Shown here in pieces: positions 1,156 to 6,871 of a stretch of 7,441 nt of DNA. This stretch comes from a virus. Taxonomy: Duplodnaviria > Heunggongvirae > Uroviricota > Caudoviricetes. The stretch is taken from IMG/VR virus record IMGVR_UViG_2713896784_000023; one strand, given 5' to 3'. The position numbers and the translations under genes were made by a program. The notes beneath the pieces were generated by a model that was not told the origin of the DNA, searched no databases, and was given only the letters and a program-made list of their open reading frames with translations. Position 1 is the stretch's first letter. Each line of letters begins with the position of its first letter.

Positions 1156-1383
1156 ATGTTTAAATCAGACGTAATTAATTTTTATGGGACGAAAGCCAAA
1201 GTAGCGAAAGCTGCTGGTGTTGATCCATCTGCTGTTTCTCAATGGGGGGAACTGGTTCCTGAAGGTCGCGCGATGCGCCTGCAAGAGGCATCCGGCGGGG
1301 AACTTCAGTACGACCCCAAAGTTTATGACGAATATCGTAAGGCAAAGCGGGCGGGGCGGTTGAACAATGAAAATCACCCCTGA
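1156..1383 (+). CDS. dicC: Cro-like small HTH regulator (DicC/YdaS family), 75 aa
   Basis: ATG at 1156 preceded by GGAGG; the track's TTG start at 1129 is less likely. Motif FYGTKAKVAKAAGVDPSAVSQWGELVPEGRAMRLQEASGG is typical of the YdaS/DicC Cro-like family; divergent from the repressor. Assigned by recollection and position, not by search. Confidence 0.7.
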   Translation: MFKSDVINFYGTKAKVAKAAGVDPSAVSQWGELVPEGRAMRLQEASGGELQYDPKVYDEYRKAKRAGRLNNENHP

Positions 1384-1918
1384 ACAGGTTTGTGAGGCTC
1401 TGGATGCCTGGGTATGTCGACCAGGAATGACACAGGAGCAGGCGACGATATTAATCACGGAAGCATTCTGGGCTCTGAAAGAACGCCCGAACATCGATGT
1501 TCAACGCATCACGTTTAATGATGGCGAGGTTGATCAACGGGCACTGGGCGTTAACCGGGTGAAGATATTCGAACGCTGGAAAGCTATCGACACCAGGGAT
1601 AAGCGGAAAAAATTCACGGCGCTGATTCCGGCAATTATGGAGGCTATCCGAATTAGTGATTTCAGGTTGTATCGTGAGATCAGTGATGGAAAAAGCATTA
1701 CGTACATGATCGCCGGATTAAACAAAGAATATGGCGATGTGGTGGAGTCCGGGCTGCTTTTTGCGGATCCATCTGTTGTGGAACGTGAGACTGACGAGCT
1801 TATAGAAAAAGCTATTGCTTTCAAGCATGCGTATCGTCAGCAGTATCAATATTACTTTGCAGATAAACAAATATCTGTCTGGGGTTCGTATGAGTATCGA
1901 TGCACTACGATGGGCTAA
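1367..1918 (+). CDS. YdaT-family protein (candidate CII functional analogue), 183 aa
   Basis: Sits directly after the Cro-like gene, overlapping it by 17 nt, as in racR-ydaS-ydaT and CP-933P cI-cro-ydaT switches; N-terminus MKITPEQV... and an internal ...KFTALIPAIMEAI... segment resemble YdaT as I recall it. Family call is tentative. Confidence 0.55.
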   Translation: MKITPEQVCEALDAWVCRPGMTQEQATILITEAFWALKERPNIDVQRITFNDGEVDQRALGVNRVKIFERWKAIDTRDKRKKFTALIPAIMEAIRISDFRLYREISDGKSITYMIAGLNKEYGDVVESGLLFADPSVVERETDELIEKAIAFKHAYRQQYQYYFADKQISVWGSYEYRCTTMG

Positions 1919-3418: not shown

Positions 3419-4057
3419 ATGGGAACCGTATTGCATGCACTGAAAGCGATGGGTAAAGCCAATTCTGTTGAACTGGCGGCGCGGCTTGATATCAGCCGTG
3501 AAGAAGTTCTCAACGAACTGTGGGAACTCAAAAAAAATGGCGTTGTTGATAAAACGGGTCACACCTGGTTTCTGGCTGTCGAAGGTGAATCCGGGGTAAC
3601 CGAAGGGCAGGCACTACAACCTGAAGCGCCGGATGTGGTAACCGAAGAGGTCNNNNNNNNNNNNNNNNNNNNNNNNNNNNNNNNNNNNNNNNNNNNNNNN
3701 NNTCGTTACTGCATGCCGGGCGATAATTTACCAGCAGAGCCGAAAGCCGCGCTGGTAACGGAAAATGATGGTAAAGCCTTTCCTCAGCCAGCAGGTGTTG
3801 CGTTACCAGTCCGGGAAGCGGAAACACAGGAAGAAATGAAAACAGAAATCGTGGAAGACATTGTGAAGTTACAGCCATCGGTCACCGAAACGAAAGCAGA
3901 TGACCTGATTCTACCATCGCTGCATGTGGCTAACCGAGAGCTGCGCCGGGCGAAAAGTGATGTGCAGAAGTGGGGGCGAGTCTGTGCCGCTCTGCGGGAA
4001 CTGAACAAACACAGGGATATTCTCCGGGATATTACCGCCACCAGAGAGCAGCAGTGA
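3419..4057 (+). CDS. Hypothetical phage protein with N-terminal winged-helix-like domain, about 212 aa, interrupted by the N-run 3653-3702
   Basis: ATG at 3419 preceded by GGAGG at 3407-3411; the track's upstream extension from 3353 is less likely. N-terminal [45 protein letters not shown] looks like a MarR-type winged helix; acidic middle; C-terminal basic helix. Reading frame is continuous across the N-run. Occupies the ren/nin position after P. Confidence 0.6.
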
Positions 4058-4382: not shown

Positions 4383-4466
4383 CGTAATTACTAATCCGGG
4401 GCTATATTCACCTCACGGTCGAGTTGACCGTCGGGATTGAGACCCCGGATAGAAACCGCGACAGAC

Positions 4467-4489
4467 ACACGCCGCGAGCGTGTTTTTTA
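4467..4489 (+). terminator. Rho-independent terminator (stem ACACGC / GCGTGT, 5-nt loop, T6 tract)
   Basis: ACACGC (4467-4472), loop CGCGA, GCGTGT (4478-4483), then TTTTTTATT; GC-rich perfect 6-bp stem ends the 4117-4382 gene pair. Confidence 0.6.
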
Positions 4490-4583
4490 TTGTCGTATGC
4501 ACGCGCACATCTGAATTATGGTGGGGCGTATAGGGGAGCTGAAAAGCTCGCCGGTTGGTTTCCCGGTAGTCTCAACCCTGTAC

Positions 4584-4649
4584 GTCTCACCACCCGACGA
4601 TTGAGACCTGACGGTGGTGATAGTTTAGAAACCACCCTAGGGTGTCGTT
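4584..4649 (+). promoter_or_regulatory. Structured 5' leader of the ORF6N-type gene with mutually exclusive hairpins
   Basis: Hairpin A: GTCTCA (4584-4589) with TGAGAC (4602-4607). Hairpin B: CACCACC (4588-4594) with GGTGGTG (4613-4619). Hairpin C: GGTGGT (4613-4618) with ACCACC (4631-4636), ending 2 nt before the AGGG Shine-Dalgarno (4639-4642); palindrome CCCTAGGG at 4635-4642. A, B and C share bases and cannot all form at once. Confidence 0.35.
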
Positions 4650-5198
4650 ATGACTACTCAAATCTCTGTTGAAACTCTTGTTGCTATTACTTACAACCAA
4701 ATCCCTGTAATTACCACTGAGTTGTTGGCGCATCTTTATGGTGCAGACGTTAAGAATATTCAAAACAACTTTGCAAGGAATGTAGGGCGCTTTCAGATTG
4801 GAAAACACTTTTTTAAGATCGAAGGTGAAGAGTTACGTGAATTGAAGCACAGACCATCTTTAAGTGGGTCTGTGAAAATCGCCCGTAACGTTCGTTCCCT
4901 CATCCTCTGGACAGAACGCGGAGCAGCCCGTCATGCAAAAATGCTCGAAACCGATCAGGCGTGGGAAGTATTCGAAAAACTCGAAGACAGTTACTTCAAC
5001 CAGTACGAGAAAGAGCGGGCTATGGGAAAAATGAATATCGATTTTCACCTGGCGATCCGTGACGATAAAACCGCCTTCATCCGAAGTTATGCGCCTGGCC
5101 AGCTGGTGACGGTTGAAGAAGCCCTGGCTTTGCTTAAATCGCGCGGATGGCTGGTAATGCCACGAGATGAACTGGCCGGAAAATTAATGGAGCTTTAA
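4650..5198 (+). CDS. ORF6N/Rha-type phage regulatory protein (antirepressor-like KilA-N superfamily), 182 aa
   Basis: N-terminal NQIPVITTELLAHLYGADVKNIQNNFARNVGRFQIGKHFFKIEGEELRELK matches the ORF6N/Rha-type DNA-binding domain pattern; C-terminal part uncharacterised. AGGG Shine-Dalgarno 7 nt before the ATG. Confidence 0.7.
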   Translation: MTTQISVETLVAITYNQIPVITTELLAHLYGADVKNIQNNFARNVGRFQIGKHFFKIEGEELRELKHRPSLSGSVKIARNVRSLILWTERGAARHAKMLETDQAWEVFEKLEDSYFNQYEKERAMGKMNIDFHLAIRDDKTAFIRSYAPGQLVTVEEALALLKSRGWLVMPRDELAGKLMEL

Positions 5199-5235: not shown

Positions 5236-5312
5236 GGGAGAACATTACCATCGGGGATAAAATGATTTGCGGGGAAAGAAGAGTTAAGTAGAATTGCTGC
5301 GGGTGCTTGAGG

Positions 5313-5348
5313 CTGTCTGCCTCGGGCATGCCGCCGTAAGGCAGACAG
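5313..5348 (+). other. Strong hairpin: 10-bp perfect stem CTGTCTGCCT / AGGCAGACAG with 16-nt loop containing palindrome GGCATGCC
   Basis: Read directly from the sequence; no adjacent T-tract on either strand, so not a canonical terminator; part of a roughly 270-bp stretch with no ORF of 60 aa or more on either strand. Confidence 0.5.
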
Positions 5349-5469
5349 AGAAAAGCCCCAGTTAACATTACGCGTCTTGCAGGACGCTTAACATTAATCT
5401 GAGGCCAATTTCATGCTTTGCACATGTAGGTTAGCCTCTTACGTGCCGAAAGGCAAGGAGAAGCAGGCT

Positions 5470-5583
5470 ATGAAGCAGCAAANNNNNNNNNNNNNNNNNN
5501 NNNNNNNNNNNNNNNNNNNNNNNNNNNNNNNNACCGGCCAGACGGAGGTCGCTGTCTTCACAGCTTACGAACCTGAGGAGTAA
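5470..5583 (+). CDS. Candidate small ORF, about 37 aa (MKQQ...TGQTEVAVFTAYEPEE), interrupted by the N-run 5483-5532
   Basis: Consensus AAGGAG Shine-Dalgarno at 5455-5460, 9 nt before ATG 5470; the frame is continuous across the 50-N mask and stops at TAA 5581-5583; a 9-bp GAAA-tetraloop hairpin follows at 5591-5612. An in-frame upstream ATG at 5413 with GAGG would give about 56 aa. Coding status unproven. Confidence 0.3.
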   Translation: MKQQXXXXXXXXXXXXXXXXXTGQTEVAVFTAYEPEE

Positions 5584-5642: not shown

Positions 5643-5672
5643 CCCGCACTTAACCTGCTTCGGCGGGTTTTG
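5643..5672 (+). terminator. Putative intrinsic terminator (stem CCCGC / GCGGG, long loop, TTTTGTTGTATT)
   Basis: CCCGC (5643-5647) and GCGGG (5663-5667) followed by a T-rich tract; lies between the convergent small ORF and the antitoxin gene end. Weak stem with long loop. Confidence 0.4.
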
Positions 5673-5685
5673 TTGTATTAGAATA

Positions 5686-6003
5686 TCAGGATATTACCTG
5701 GATCCCGTTTTTCTCGACAACTGAAAGAAGCCGAAGAGCTGCACCTCCCGGGCGTTTCACTCCTCGTTCCCAGTCTGATATCAGGTTTTTACTGACGTTG
5801 AGGTATCTGGCAAAAACAGGTTGAGACAGATGCTCTCGTTCTCGCAGTGCACGGATCCTTTCCGGAGACATTACCGGCGCAGGCTGAAGACAAGTTTCAT
5901 CGAATTCGCGCATAGTTTGTTTTGTGATTGCACCGATATCATGGAGTGACTCCATCATTTCATGTACAGATGCAAGTGCATCACTGCGGTAATTTTTACT
6001 CAT
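5686..6003 (-). CDS. XRE-family HTH antitoxin (HigA-like), 105 aa
   Basis: C-terminal Cro/C1-type HTH (LREREHLSQPVFARYLNVSKNLISDWERGVKRPGGAALRLL) with an N-terminal extension, as in antitoxins partnered with RelE-like toxins; ATG at 6003-6001 overlaps the upstream toxin stop by 8 nt; GGAGG 6 nt upstream. Confidence 0.85.
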   Translation of the reverse strand: MSKNYRSDALASVHEMMESLHDIGAITKQTMREFDETCLQPAPVMSPERIRALREREHLSQPVFARYLNVSKNLISDWERGVKRPGGAALRLLSVVEKNGIQVIS

Positions 6004-6367
6004 TGGGTACCTCCGTGAACTGGCCTTGTTGAATCAATTGTGCCAGCTGTTCATCAGTAAGATTGAGGACATGGGGAGCGGCTTTTCGAAAAGCATTTTC
6101 CTCTATAGCAGTGATATTCTCTCGTTCATTCTTTGCGTATGCGTAGATGAAAAAGGCTTTTTCTGCAACGCGGTAAAAAATTATTGTCCGGTAACCGCCT
6201 GATTTTCCGCCACCACTTCGGGCTAATCTTTGTTTAATGACACCACTACCCAAATTTGCGGATATGATCCCCTTATCGGCCTGCTCCACGATTTTGCGCA
6301 GCGATTTATCGGAAATCCGATGTTTTCGGGCGAAACGTTCAAACCAGGCGTTTTTGAAAATTCGCAT
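5996..6367 (-). CDS. RelE/ParE-superfamily type II toxin (HigB-like, toxin-first operon), 123 aa
   Basis: Motifs FKNAWFERFARKHRI, LGSGVIKQRLAR and GKSGGYRTIIFYR...FIYAYAKNERENI match the RelE-like toxin family that pairs with XRE antitoxins; GAGG Shine-Dalgarno upstream of ATG 6367-6365; orientation opposite to flanking phage genes. Confidence 0.85.
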   Translation of the reverse strand: MRIFKNAWFERFARKHRISDKSLRKIVEQADKGIISANLGSGVIKQRLARSGGGKSGGYRTIIFYRVAEKAFFIYAYAKNERENITAIEENAFRKAAPHVLNLTDEQLAQLIQQGQFTEVPNE

Positions 6368-6420
6368 ACCTGCCTCTGCATTTTATATAACACATAGTGT
6401 TACACCATGTGGACTATGGA
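6368..6420 (-). promoter_or_regulatory. Toxin-antitoxin operon promoter region with operator-like inverted repeat TAACACATAGTGTTA
   Basis: AT-rich region with TATATAAAAT -10-like element on the minus strand just upstream of the toxin Shine-Dalgarno; inverted repeat AACAC...GTGTT at 6388-6402 overlaps it, as expected for antitoxin autoregulation. No convincing -35 found. Confidence 0.4.
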
Positions 6421-6590
6421 GGCAATCTTTATTTGAGAATGCTTGCTGATTTATCGGTGTTCAAAAAATAGACGTAATTCAGATTGTATAAACGGCAGAC
6501 AGAAAAAGTCATTGTTCTTGCGCATAAAATCCTCAGATTTACTGAGTGAAATGCGTCTCTTTTCATGGTTATAGTCCGAGAGAAGCGATA

Positions 6591-6818
6591 ATGCATTTCA
6601 TTTCCTTTACGTCAGGAGGTGTTGTGAAAATCCCAGCCAGTTTGATCCCGGGGTTTTATGAGAGCACGCGCCCGGTTGTTGTTTACAGAAACAGTGATGG
6701 TTCTTTTCAATGTGGTTTTGTTATGCGAAGTAATGAGGTTGTTGTAAGCCTTTCTCTTCTTTCTGAGGTAAGAGAGTTGGCAGGATTACCTGTTGATGAT
6801 ATTCAGAAGCAGCTATAA
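6591..6818 (+). CDS. Hypothetical protein, about 75 aa from ATG 6591 (the track's alternative start at 6546 gives 90 aa)
   Basis: Open frame on the rightward strand after the moron; weak Shine-Dalgarno for either start; sequence ...GGVVKIPASLIPGFYESTRPVVVYRNSDGSF... not confidently assigned to a family. Confidence 0.4.
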   Translation: MHFISFTSGGVVKIPASLIPGFYESTRPVVVYRNSDGSFQCGFVMRSNEVVVSLSLLSEVRELAGLPVDDIQKQL

Positions 6819-6871
6819 AATCAGGCTGACTTGAACCGTCGCTGAGAAACACCGTGCCACCGGAGATCCCG

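What the first reader, a model, noticed from the sequence alone, without database searches (positions are those of the whole stretch)
5686..6420. Reverse-oriented RelE/ParE-like toxin plus XRE antitoxin moron inside the nin-like region
A toxin-first (HigBA-like) two-gene operon is inserted on the opposite strand between rightward phage genes, with an 8-nt start-stop overlap and an operator-like inverted repeat (6388-6402) in its promoter. Prophage-borne toxin-antitoxin morons of this kind commonly act in abortive infection or superinfection exclusion. The family is known; its placement next to the structured RNA block and small ORF suggests a possible larger functional unit.
Basis: partly seen in the sequence, partly recalled or inferred. 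Interest (0 to 1): 0.55.

Follow-up and report, generated by a model that had tools for sequence, protein, structure and literature searches.

The report
Prophage HigBA-2-type toxin-antitoxin pair
This is an ordinary two-gene toxin-antitoxin module of the well-studied HigB-2/HigA-2 family. It is carried as an optional cassette in an E. coli O157-type lambdoid prophage and public annotation already labels it as such.

Summary
On the minus strand a 123-aa toxin gene (5996-6367) overlaps a 105-aa HTH antitoxin gene (5686-6003) by 8 nt. A palindrome lies 37 nt upstream of the toxin start.

The toxin matches Pfam PF06296 over its full length (E 1.4e-47). That family contains Vibrio cholerae HigB-2. 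The antitoxin's closest solved relative is HigA-2.

The DNA is 100% identical to E. coli O157:H7 prophage sequence, where RefSeq already calls the toxin a 'type II toxin-antitoxin system RelE/ParE family toxin'.

The palindrome is not significant in the window alone (P about 0.3). It is, however, part of a 19-nt motif, TRTMAYAC-N3-GTRTKAYA. That motif recurs upstream of the toxin in most of 79 homologous loci from many phyla, so it is very likely the HigA-2-type operator.

The gene pair is the conserved unit: 79 of 80 loci keep it, and none of those has hok or ORF6N nearby. The neighbouring 'structured RNA plus small ORF' is a separate hok/sok type I module. Related phages carry hok/sok without this pair.

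Any role in phage defence is untested here. Verdict: real, correctly read, already known, low interest.

The parts
5996..6367 (-). Toxin gene, 123 aa, HigB-2 family (Pfam PF06296, 'PF_RelE'). Predicted ribosome-dependent mRNA endonuclease.
   Evidence: ORF. Pfam PF06296 E 1.4e-47, profile 1-120 of 120. Best PDB relatives are all V. cholerae HigB-2. 1418 homologs, and all 120 listed carry PF06296. RefSeq WP_001217944.1 is named 'type II toxin-antitoxin system RelE/ParE family toxin'.
5686..6003 (-). Antitoxin gene, 105 aa. [quoted passage not shown] HigA-2 / YiaG type.
   Evidence: ORF. HTH_3 32 bits. HigA-2 structures 5jaa and 5j9i match at E 6.7e-08 over aa 45-99. A homolog lies directly downstream of the toxin in 79 of 80 loci. 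phrog_2104 E 5e-43.
5996..6003 (-). 8-nt overlap of the toxin stop and antitoxin start (ATGAGTAA), with GGAGG at 6014-6010. This suggests translational coupling.
   Evidence: Sequence. The same 8-nt overlap occurs in L005, L013 and L017.
6386..6404 (-). Operator-like 19-mer TGTAACAC-TAT-GTGTTATA (minus strand). Its 5' end is 37 nt upstream of the toxin ATG.
   Evidence: 100% conserved in phage PhiR12_3 while the flanks diverge. Conserved in four enterobacterial lineages. At least 14 of 19 positions match in 59 of 79 loci from many phyla, whereas only 2 of 1580 shuffles reach 14.
6380..6392 (-). Candidate -10 region overlapping the right arm of the operator (TG-T-TATATA, TATAAA or TAAAAT). The promoter is not mapped.
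   Evidence: Read from the sequence. The consensus scan found no strong sigma-70 site here; its only minus-strand hit is 6512-6483. The family-wide layout is TTnAnG, then the operator, then TA..A. This assignment is inference.
5675..6868 (.). Optional cassette: the toxin-antitoxin pair, its control region and one small rightward ORF (6624-6818). Related phages lack it or carry something else here.
   Evidence: blastn against phage Evi (L003) and HannyBb (L004). Homology stops at 5674 or 5671 and resumes at 6869 or 6832.

Best explanation
This is a type II toxin-antitoxin operon of the HigBA-2 family. It is carried as an optional cassette on the opposite strand of the nin-like region of an E. 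coli O157-type lambdoid prophage.

**Shown here**
- The toxin is a full-length member of Pfam PF06296.
- The antitoxin is an XRE-HTH protein most like HigA-2.
- The two genes overlap by 8 nt.
- A conserved palindromic 19-mer sits just upstream of the toxin gene.
- The pair is kept together across many phyla.

**Inferred from the V. cholerae HigBA-2 work**
- The toxin enters the ribosomal A site and cleaves translating mRNA.
- The antitoxin's N-terminal segment folds onto the toxin and neutralises it.
- Its C-terminal HTH dimer binds the palindrome over the promoter and represses the operon.
- When antitoxin synthesis stops or the antitoxin is degraded, free toxin arrests translation.

Because the operon points against phage early transcription and has its own control region, it is probably expressed in the lysogen. 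The most likely net effect is addiction, that is stabilisation of the prophage segment. A defence role is possible but unshown.
For: **Family assignment**
- PF06296 at 161 bits, full length. According to PMC11980606, PF06296 contains V. cholerae HigB-2 (Q9KMA6), a ribosome-dependent mRNase with toxin-antitoxin gene order.
- The best solved relatives of both proteins are HigB-2 and HigA-2.

**Catalytic residues**
- VcHigB2 Arg51, Arg64, Tyr82 and Lys84 (PMC5416850) align with R47, R60, Y77 and K79.
- R60 is invariant, and R47 and K79 nearly invariant, in 68 relatives.

**Conservation of the pair**
- 79 of 80 genome loci and 59 of 59 viral loci have the antitoxin directly downstream on the same strand.

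**Operator**
- The 19-mer is conserved family-wide.
- Like the VcHigA2 operator it is a single inverted repeat spanning 19 bp next to or over the -10 region (PMC11006873).

**Indirect evidence of toxicity**
- 14 of 38 enterobacterial viral contigs, and phage PhiR12_3, carry a frameshifted toxin beside an intact antitoxin. That antitoxin is 99-100% identical to the window's in the 14 contigs and about 90% identical in PhiR12_3.

**Existing annotation**
- RefSeq already names the toxin as a type II TA toxin.
Against: - Nothing here was tested experimentally, and I found no paper on this exact pair.
- The AlphaFold model of the toxin is mediocre: pLDDT 66, with residues 38-61 below 50. Foldseek ranks HigB2 chains first to sixth but without significance (E at least 0.23, TM 0.38-0.43).
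- Sequence identity to VcHigB2 is low, and only the central part aligns (aa 38-90).
- The residue aligned with catalytic Tyr82 is Tyr in this protein but Phe in most relatives. The family-conserved tyrosine is Y75, so the catalytic Tyr assignment is uncertain.
- The four base-contacting residues of VcHigA2 (R68, E71, N72, R77) are N, S, D and V here. DNA recognition is therefore analogous, not identical.
- No convincing sigma-70 -35/-10 pair was found at the operator.
- No intrinsic terminator follows the antitoxin gene on the minus strand.
Confidence: 0.88

Rival explanations
1. The same toxin-antitoxin pair serves mainly as a prophage-encoded anti-phage module, through abortive infection or superinfection exclusion. 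Infection by another phage would deplete or inactivate the antitoxin, and the freed mRNase would shut down translation. This concerns biological role and is compatible with the mechanism above.
For: The pair is recurrent prophage cargo: 114 IMG/VR contigs encode a relative, and both proteins have PHROG families. It sits in an accessory hot spot beside another toxin module, hok/sok. Other RelE-superfamily modules, the HigB-type TAC systems, are reported to abort lambda infection (PMC11980606).
Against: The toxin has no PADLOC model, and the antitoxin gives only generic HTH hits. The literature search found no defence test of a PF06296 module. The same pair is common in chromosomes with no phage genes nearby, for example Halomonas. 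Frequent toxin frameshifts in prophages argue against strong selection for a working defence.
Confidence: 0.2
2. The pair is one part of a larger functional unit with the neighbouring hok/sok locus and the isrK-C4-ORF6N antirepressor module. One possible link is convergent transcription from the pair running antisense into hok.
For: hok lies within 2.5 kb, convergent with the pair, in 28 of 59 viral contigs, and ORF6N lies nearby in 28 of 59. An ORF6N gene with isrK and C4 RNAs lies divergent to the toxin in the 85%-identity lineage. No minus-strand terminator separates the antitoxin gene from hok. K-12 Qin has relBE next to hokD at the equivalent place.
Against: Order, spacing and orientation of the three modules differ between lineages. 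hok/sok occurs without the pair in many phages, and 4392 E. coli genomes match part of the query against only 201 that match nearly all of it, the pair included. The 92% lineage lacks both hok and ORF6N, and the 85% lineage lacks hok. None of 80 loci from other taxa has hok or ORF6N within 1.5 kb. The pattern fits a shared insertion hot spot rather than a unit.
Confidence: 0.07
3. The module is functionally decayed in this prophage. The toxin would be attenuated, and the HTH protein would act only as a transcription factor or as an anti-addiction antitoxin.
For: Toxin genes are frameshifted in 14 of 38 related viral contigs and in PhiR12_3, while the antitoxin stays intact. The antitoxin is more conserved (55-82% identity) than the toxin (46-66%) across taxa.
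Against: In the window the toxin ORF is intact and full length. It has a Shine-Dalgarno sequence and the aligned catalytic residues. It is 100% identical in many STEC genomes.
Confidence: 0.06

Closest known systems
Vibrio cholerae HigBA-2 (HigB-2 VCA0468 / HigA-2; PDB 5ja8, 5ja9, 5jaa, 5j9i, 8a0x)
   Same: Same Pfam toxin family, PF06296. Toxin-first order. The antitoxin has an N-terminal extension plus a C-terminal XRE HTH, and HigA-2 is its best PDB match. Aligned catalytic Arg, Arg, Tyr and Lys. A Gly/Lys-rich loop lies between the strands that carry the two aligned catalytic Arg residues. Both have a single inverted-repeat operator spanning 19 bp at the promoter.
   Different: Only aa 38-90 of the toxin align with HigB-2 in the phmmer search (E 4e-4). 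The toxin is 123 aa against 110. The operator sequence differs: TRTMAYAC-N3-GTRTKAYA against TGTACGC-N5-GCGTACA. The four base-contacting residues of HigA-2 are not conserved. The host element is a lambdoid prophage rather than the superintegron.
relE-yiaG bicistronic modules ('PF_RelE' toxins with YiaG-like antitoxins; Gerdes 2025, PMC11980606)
   Same: A PF06296 toxin lies upstream of an XRE-HTH antitoxin related to YiaG. The antitoxin hits the PRK10072/YiaG model weakly, E 2.7e-5. E. coli examples are described in that paper.
   Different: The subfamily highlighted there has toxins with extended, disordered N-termini. The window's toxin starts directly with the conserved MRIFKNAWF core.
relBE-hokD of the E. 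coli K-12 Qin prophage
   Same: A RelE-superfamily type II module lies next to hokD, between the immunity/replication genes and rem-ydfU-Q of a related lambdoid prophage.
   Different: K-12 RelE is PF05016, the order is antitoxin first, and it is co-oriented with and upstream of hokD. Here the module is PF06296, toxin first, downstream of and convergent with hok. Here hok also keeps a full sok/mok region.
Rts1 / Proteus vulgaris HigBA
   Same: Toxin-first gene order, a ribosome-dependent RelE-superfamily toxin and an HTH antitoxin.
   Different: It belongs to a different Pfam family (PF05015). Neither window protein hits PF05015 or PF09907. Hadzi et al. (PMC5416850) show that HigB2 is structurally closer to E. 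coli RelE than to Rts1 HigB.

Membership tests
HigB-2 toxin family (Pfam PF06296, 'PF_RelE') | Full-length match to the family profile above the curated cut-off | tested here: met
   161.3 bits against a cut-off of 27, E 1.4e-47, profile positions 1-120 of 120. All 120 listed homologs carry PF06296.
HigB-2 toxin family (Pfam PF06296, 'PF_RelE') | RelE-like catalytic residues (VcHigB2 Arg51, Arg64, Tyr82, Lys84) | tested here: met
   They align with R47, R60, Y77 and K79. R60 is invariant, and R47 and K79 nearly invariant, in 68 relatives. Caveat: position 77 is Phe in most relatives, and Y75 is the conserved Tyr.
HigB-2 toxin family (Pfam PF06296, 'PF_RelE') | RelE/BECR fold | tested here: inconclusive
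   AlphaFold2 model has pLDDT 66 and pTM 0.60. The top six Foldseek PDB hits are all HigB2 chains, but E is 0.23-1.2 and TM 0.29-0.43.
HigB-2 toxin family (Pfam PF06296, 'PF_RelE') | Toxin gene first, with the antitoxin gene immediately downstream in one operon | tested here: met
   8-nt overlap in the window. The arrangement is kept in 79 of 80 genome loci and 59 of 59 viral loci.
HigB-2 toxin family (Pfam PF06296, 'PF_RelE') | Ribosome-dependent mRNA cleavage, and growth arrest that the antitoxin neutralises | not testable with these tools
   Only indirect evidence: recurrent frameshifts of the toxin beside an intact antitoxin.
HigA-2 / YiaG-type antitoxin | C-terminal XRE-type helix-turn-helix domain | tested here: met
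   HTH_3 at 32.3 bits against a cut-off of 23. HigA-2 chains match at E 6.7e-08 over aa 45-99.
HigA-2 / YiaG-type antitoxin | N-terminal intrinsically disordered segment that folds onto the toxin | not testable with these tools
   A 45-aa N-terminal extension is present and conserved (YRS.A.A..HE.ME.LH..GA..KQTM). Disorder and binding were not tested, and this segment did not align with HigA-2.
HigA-2 / YiaG-type antitoxin | Single palindromic operator at the operon's promoter | tested here: met
   The 19-mer at 6386-6404 is conserved in position and sequence across lineages. Binding itself was not tested.
Rts1-type HigBA (PF05015 / PF09907) | Match to the HigB or HigB-like toxin profiles | tested here: not met
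   At E up to 0.01 the toxin hits only PF06296.
MqsRA | MqsA-type antitoxin with an N-terminal CxxC zinc finger and a match above the cut-off | tested here: not met
   PF15731 scores 18 bits against a cut-off of 30, and TIGR03830 scores 33.5 against 61.8. Both cover only the HTH part. The antitoxin has a single Cys. The toxin does not hit MqsR.
Catalogued anti-phage defence systems (PADLOC-DB 2.0) | Match of the effector to a defence-system model | tested here: not met
   The toxin has 0 hits. The antitoxin has only generic HTH hits (RmrA, control protein, capH) at E 1e-5 or weaker.

The most novel reading that the evidence does not exclude
In Qin/Rac-like lambdoid prophages of enterobacteria, the hok/sok module, the HigBA-2-type pair and the isrK-C4-ORF6N antirepressor module may be co-selected as a small addiction or immunity islet. 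Cross-talk could occur through read-through of the pair's transcript antisense into hok, or through toxin activation on prophage induction or superinfection. On this reading the pair would contribute to abortive infection or to control of induction, rather than being a stand-alone selfish module.
Probability: 0.08. Interest if true: 0.45.

Novelty: already known. Interest (0 to 1): 0.13.

Why it matters
It matters little beyond correct annotation. The module adds one more RelE-superfamily toxin-antitoxin pair to the accessory load of STEC prophages. That is relevant to prophage stability and possibly to stress or phage responses of O157 strains.

Two by-products may be useful:
- A family-wide operator consensus, TRTMAYAC-N3-GTRTKAYA, for this HigA-2/YiaG-like antitoxin subfamily. 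I did not find it stated in the papers I read.
- The observation that the toxin gene is often frameshifted in prophages while the antitoxin is kept.

Tried and rejected
- **Palindrome statistics in the window alone.** Not significant (P about 0.30), so the case rests on comparative data.
- **Promoter scan.** The sigma-70 consensus scan found no site at the operator, only a weak ATGACT-18-TACAAT at 6512-6483. The promoter position remains inferred.
- **Toxin structure.** The AlphaFold2 model was of mediocre confidence, and the Foldseek search against PDB gave no significant hit. HigB2 chains took ranks 1 to 6. I treated this as inconclusive.
- **Profile search against PDB.** A profile of 68 toxins did not extend the HigB-2 match beyond aa 40-92.
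- **NCBIfam.** No model for the toxin.
- **PADLOC.** No defence model for the toxin.
- **Literature.** Searches for the RefSeq accessions, COG4737 and O157 prophage HigB found no study of this pair. A search for HigB2 with anti-phage terms found no defence test.
- **'Larger unit with hok/sok'.** Rejected as an obligate unit on comparative grounds.
- **MqsRA and Rts1 HigBA membership.** Rejected.

Full report
**1. What is in the sequence**

The minus strand of 5686-6367 holds two ORFs. One is 5996..6367, 123 aa, starting MRIFKNAWFERF. The other is 5686..6003, 105 aa. The second ATG lies inside the last codons of the first gene (CCC AAT GAG TAA), which gives an 8-nt overlap. GAGG precedes the first ATG at 6376-6373, and GGAGG precedes the second at 6014-6010. 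All neighbouring genes are on the plus strand. The palindrome TAACAC-ATA-GTGTTA is at 6388-6402, as stated.

**2. Where the window comes from**

The segment 5600-6545 is 100% identical to chromosomes of E. coli O157:H7 and other STEC. 201 of 5426 complete E. coli genomes carry it nearly full length.

In NZ_AP018488 the gene order is as follows:
- dicB, ydfC, ydfB, a DicA-like repressor, Cro, YdaT;
- replication genes and DUF1627;
- the ORF6N antirepressor and hokD;
- [HTH protein, then RelE/ParE toxin, both reversed];
- two small ORFs, DUF968 (YdfU), RusA and antiterminator Q.

This is the nin-like region of a Qin/Rac-like lambdoid prophage. RefSeq already names the toxin 'type II toxin-antitoxin system RelE/ParE family toxin' (WP_001217944.1). 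It names the partner 'helix-turn-helix domain-containing protein' (WP_000042395.1).

**3. Identity of the two proteins**

The toxin matches Pfam PF06296 over the whole profile, at 161 bits and E 1.4e-47. A recent survey of the RelE/ParE superfamily (PMC11980606) states that PF06296 ('PF_RelE') contains V. cholerae HigB-2. That paper describes HigB-2 as a ribosome-dependent mRNase with toxin-antitoxin gene order. The only solved structures that match the toxin by sequence are HigB-2 chains.

The four residues shown by mutagenesis to matter in VcHigB2 are Arg51, Arg64, Tyr82 and Lys84 (PMC5416850). They align with R47, R60, Y77 and K79. R60 is invariant, and R47 and K79 nearly invariant, in 68 relatives. 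One caveat applies. Position 77 is Phe in most relatives and the conserved Tyr is Y75, so which Tyr acts in catalysis is uncertain.

An AlphaFold2 model built on 68 sequences reached only pLDDT 66. Foldseek put six HigB2 chains on top, but without significance. The fold test is inconclusive, and the assignment rests on sequence.

The antitoxin has an XRE-type HTH (HTH_3). Its best solved relatives are HigA-2 chains, at E 6.7e-08 over aa 45-99. It also has a conserved N-terminal extension of 45 aa. That is the architecture of HigA-2, in which the N-terminal disordered segment neutralises the toxin. Matches to MqsA models are below threshold and cover only the HTH. Neither protein hits the Rts1-type HigB families.

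**4. The pair is the conserved unit**

A protein search found 1418 relatives of the toxin. All 120 listed carry PF06296.

Eighty loci were fetched from species-representative genomes. They span Proteobacteria, Chloroflexota, Deinococcota, Planctomycetota, Acidobacteriota and others. In 79 of them a homolog of the antitoxin lies directly downstream on the same strand. The one exception is cut off by a contig end. The antitoxin is more conserved (55-82% identity) than the toxin (46-66%). None of these 80 loci has hok or an ORF6N gene within 1.5 kb. In Halomonas the pair sits between ordinary chromosomal genes.

**5. The operator**

Taken alone, a 6+3+6 palindrome in a 178-nt spacer is expected by chance about 0.44 times. 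Comparison with other loci changes the picture.
- In phage PhiR12_3 (79% identical genes, different context) everything upstream of the toxin start has diverged. The exception is a 19-nt block, TGTAACACTATGTGTTATA, which is identical.
- Two Salmonella lineages and a second E. coli lineage keep the block with one or two changes, inside otherwise unalignable DNA.
- Across the 79 loci from other taxa, the best match to this 19-mer within 150 nt upstream of the toxin is at least 14 of 19 in 59 loci, and at least 12 of 19 in 73. Only 2 of 1580 shuffled controls reach 14.
- The block nearly always starts 32-61 nt upstream of the start codon.

The consensus is TRTMAYAC-N3-GTRTKAYA. In the window it occupies 6386-6404, with its 5' end 37 nt upstream of the ATG.

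The experimentally mapped VcHigA2 operator is also a single inverted repeat spanning 19 bp, TGTACGC-N5-GCGTACA. It lies between the -35 element and over the -10 element (PMC11006873). The sequence differs, and so do the four base-contacting residues: R68, E71, N72 and R77 in HigA-2 against N73, S76, D77 and V82 here. The design is therefore shared and the specificity is different.

The promoter itself is not mapped. The right arm overlaps TATA-rich candidate -10 hexamers at 6380-6392. The family-wide layout, TTnAnG then operator then TA..A, is compatible with the operator filling the spacer and touching the -10. The consensus scan found no strong site there.

**6. Moron status and neighbours**

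In phages Evi and HannyBb, homology to the window runs through hok/sok up to 5674 or 5671 and resumes at 6869 or 6832. The segment between is replaced by 73 nt or about 400 nt of other sequence. The pair, its control region and one small ORF thus form an optional cassette.

Just upstream are isrK and C4 antisense RNAs in front of the ORF6N antirepressor.

These modules do recur near the pair in enterobacterial prophages. hok is within 2.5 kb in 28 of 59 viral contigs, and ORF6N in 28 of 59. In the 85%-identity lineage the isrK-C4-ORF6N module is divergent to the toxin. However, order, spacing and orientation vary, several lineages lack one or both, and non-enteric loci lack them altogether. 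K-12 Qin has relBE beside hokD at the same place. The simplest reading is a shared hot spot for small selfish or accessory modules, not one functional unit.

**7. Indirect sign that the toxin is active**

Of 38 enterobacterial IMG/VR contigs with close relatives, 14 carry a frameshifted toxin gene next to an antitoxin gene that is 99-100% identical to the window's. PhiR12_3 shows the same pattern, with an antitoxin about 90% identical to the window's. Loss of the toxin with retention of the antitoxin is what is expected for a harmful gene. In the window the toxin gene is intact.

**8. Function**

The mechanism (mRNase toxin, neutralising and autorepressing antitoxin) is inferred from family membership with high confidence. 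The biological role is open. Addiction or stabilisation of the prophage segment is the default.

An abortive-infection role cannot be excluded, but nothing supports it here. The toxin has no PADLOC model, and I found no paper testing a PF06296 module for defence. The family is also common outside phages.

One unresolved detail: no intrinsic terminator follows the antitoxin gene on the minus strand. Read-through antisense to hok is therefore possible but untested.

**9. Verdict**

The finding is real and was read correctly. It belongs to a known, structurally characterised family and is already annotated in public records. Interest is low.

Noticed in passing
window 5301-5583 (+): A complete hok/sok type I toxin-antitoxin locus (Rfam sok, 117 bits, full model; hokD CDS from 5470). 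This is the 'structured RNA block and small ORF' of the finding. The hok terminator hairpin is at 5652-5669.
   Followed up: yes
window 4415-4597 (+) and 4650-5198 (+): isrK (52 bits) and C4 antisense RNA (70 bits) lie directly upstream of an ORF6N antirepressor gene. This resembles a P1 immI-like c4/ant module inside a lambdoid prophage. The same isrK-C4-ORF6N block lies divergent to the toxin in another E. coli lineage (L005, L006, L002).
   Followed up: partly
L124-L137 (IMG/VR contigs) and L002 5416-5733: The toxin genes are frameshifted while the adjacent antitoxin genes are intact. Those antitoxins are 99-100% identical to the window's in the 14 of 38 enterobacterial viral contigs, and about 90% identical in phage PhiR12_3.
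   Followed up: partly
L005-L010, about 4696-5001 (+): In the 85%-identity E. coli lineage, a third gene follows the antitoxin on the same strand. It encodes another HTH_3 protein of about 101 aa. The window has no counterpart.
   Followed up: no
window 5483-5532 (also 319-368 and 3653-3702): These are masked runs of 50 N. The run at 5483-5532 stands for 92 nt of the reference (NZ_AP018488), so coordinates shift by 42 nt across it and the hok CDS appears shortened.
   Followed up: yes
L019 (E. coli K-12 Qin prophage, NC_000913.3 1645119-1645872): relB-relE-hokD occupies the equivalent position, between the dicA/dicC immunity side and rem-ydfU-ydfT. The flank of hokD therefore hosts different RelE-superfamily modules in related prophages.
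   Followed up: partly
window 1367-1918 (+): The gene at the cII position is annotated in RefSeq as a 'toxin YdaT family protein'. This is another toxin-family label in the same prophage.
   Followed up: no
L020-L099, 32-61 nt upstream of the toxin start: A family-wide conserved 19-mer, TRTMAYAC-N3-GTRTKAYA, is often preceded by TTnAnG and followed by TA..A. It is a candidate operator and promoter consensus for this antitoxin subfamily. I did not see it stated in the papers I read.
   Followed up: partly
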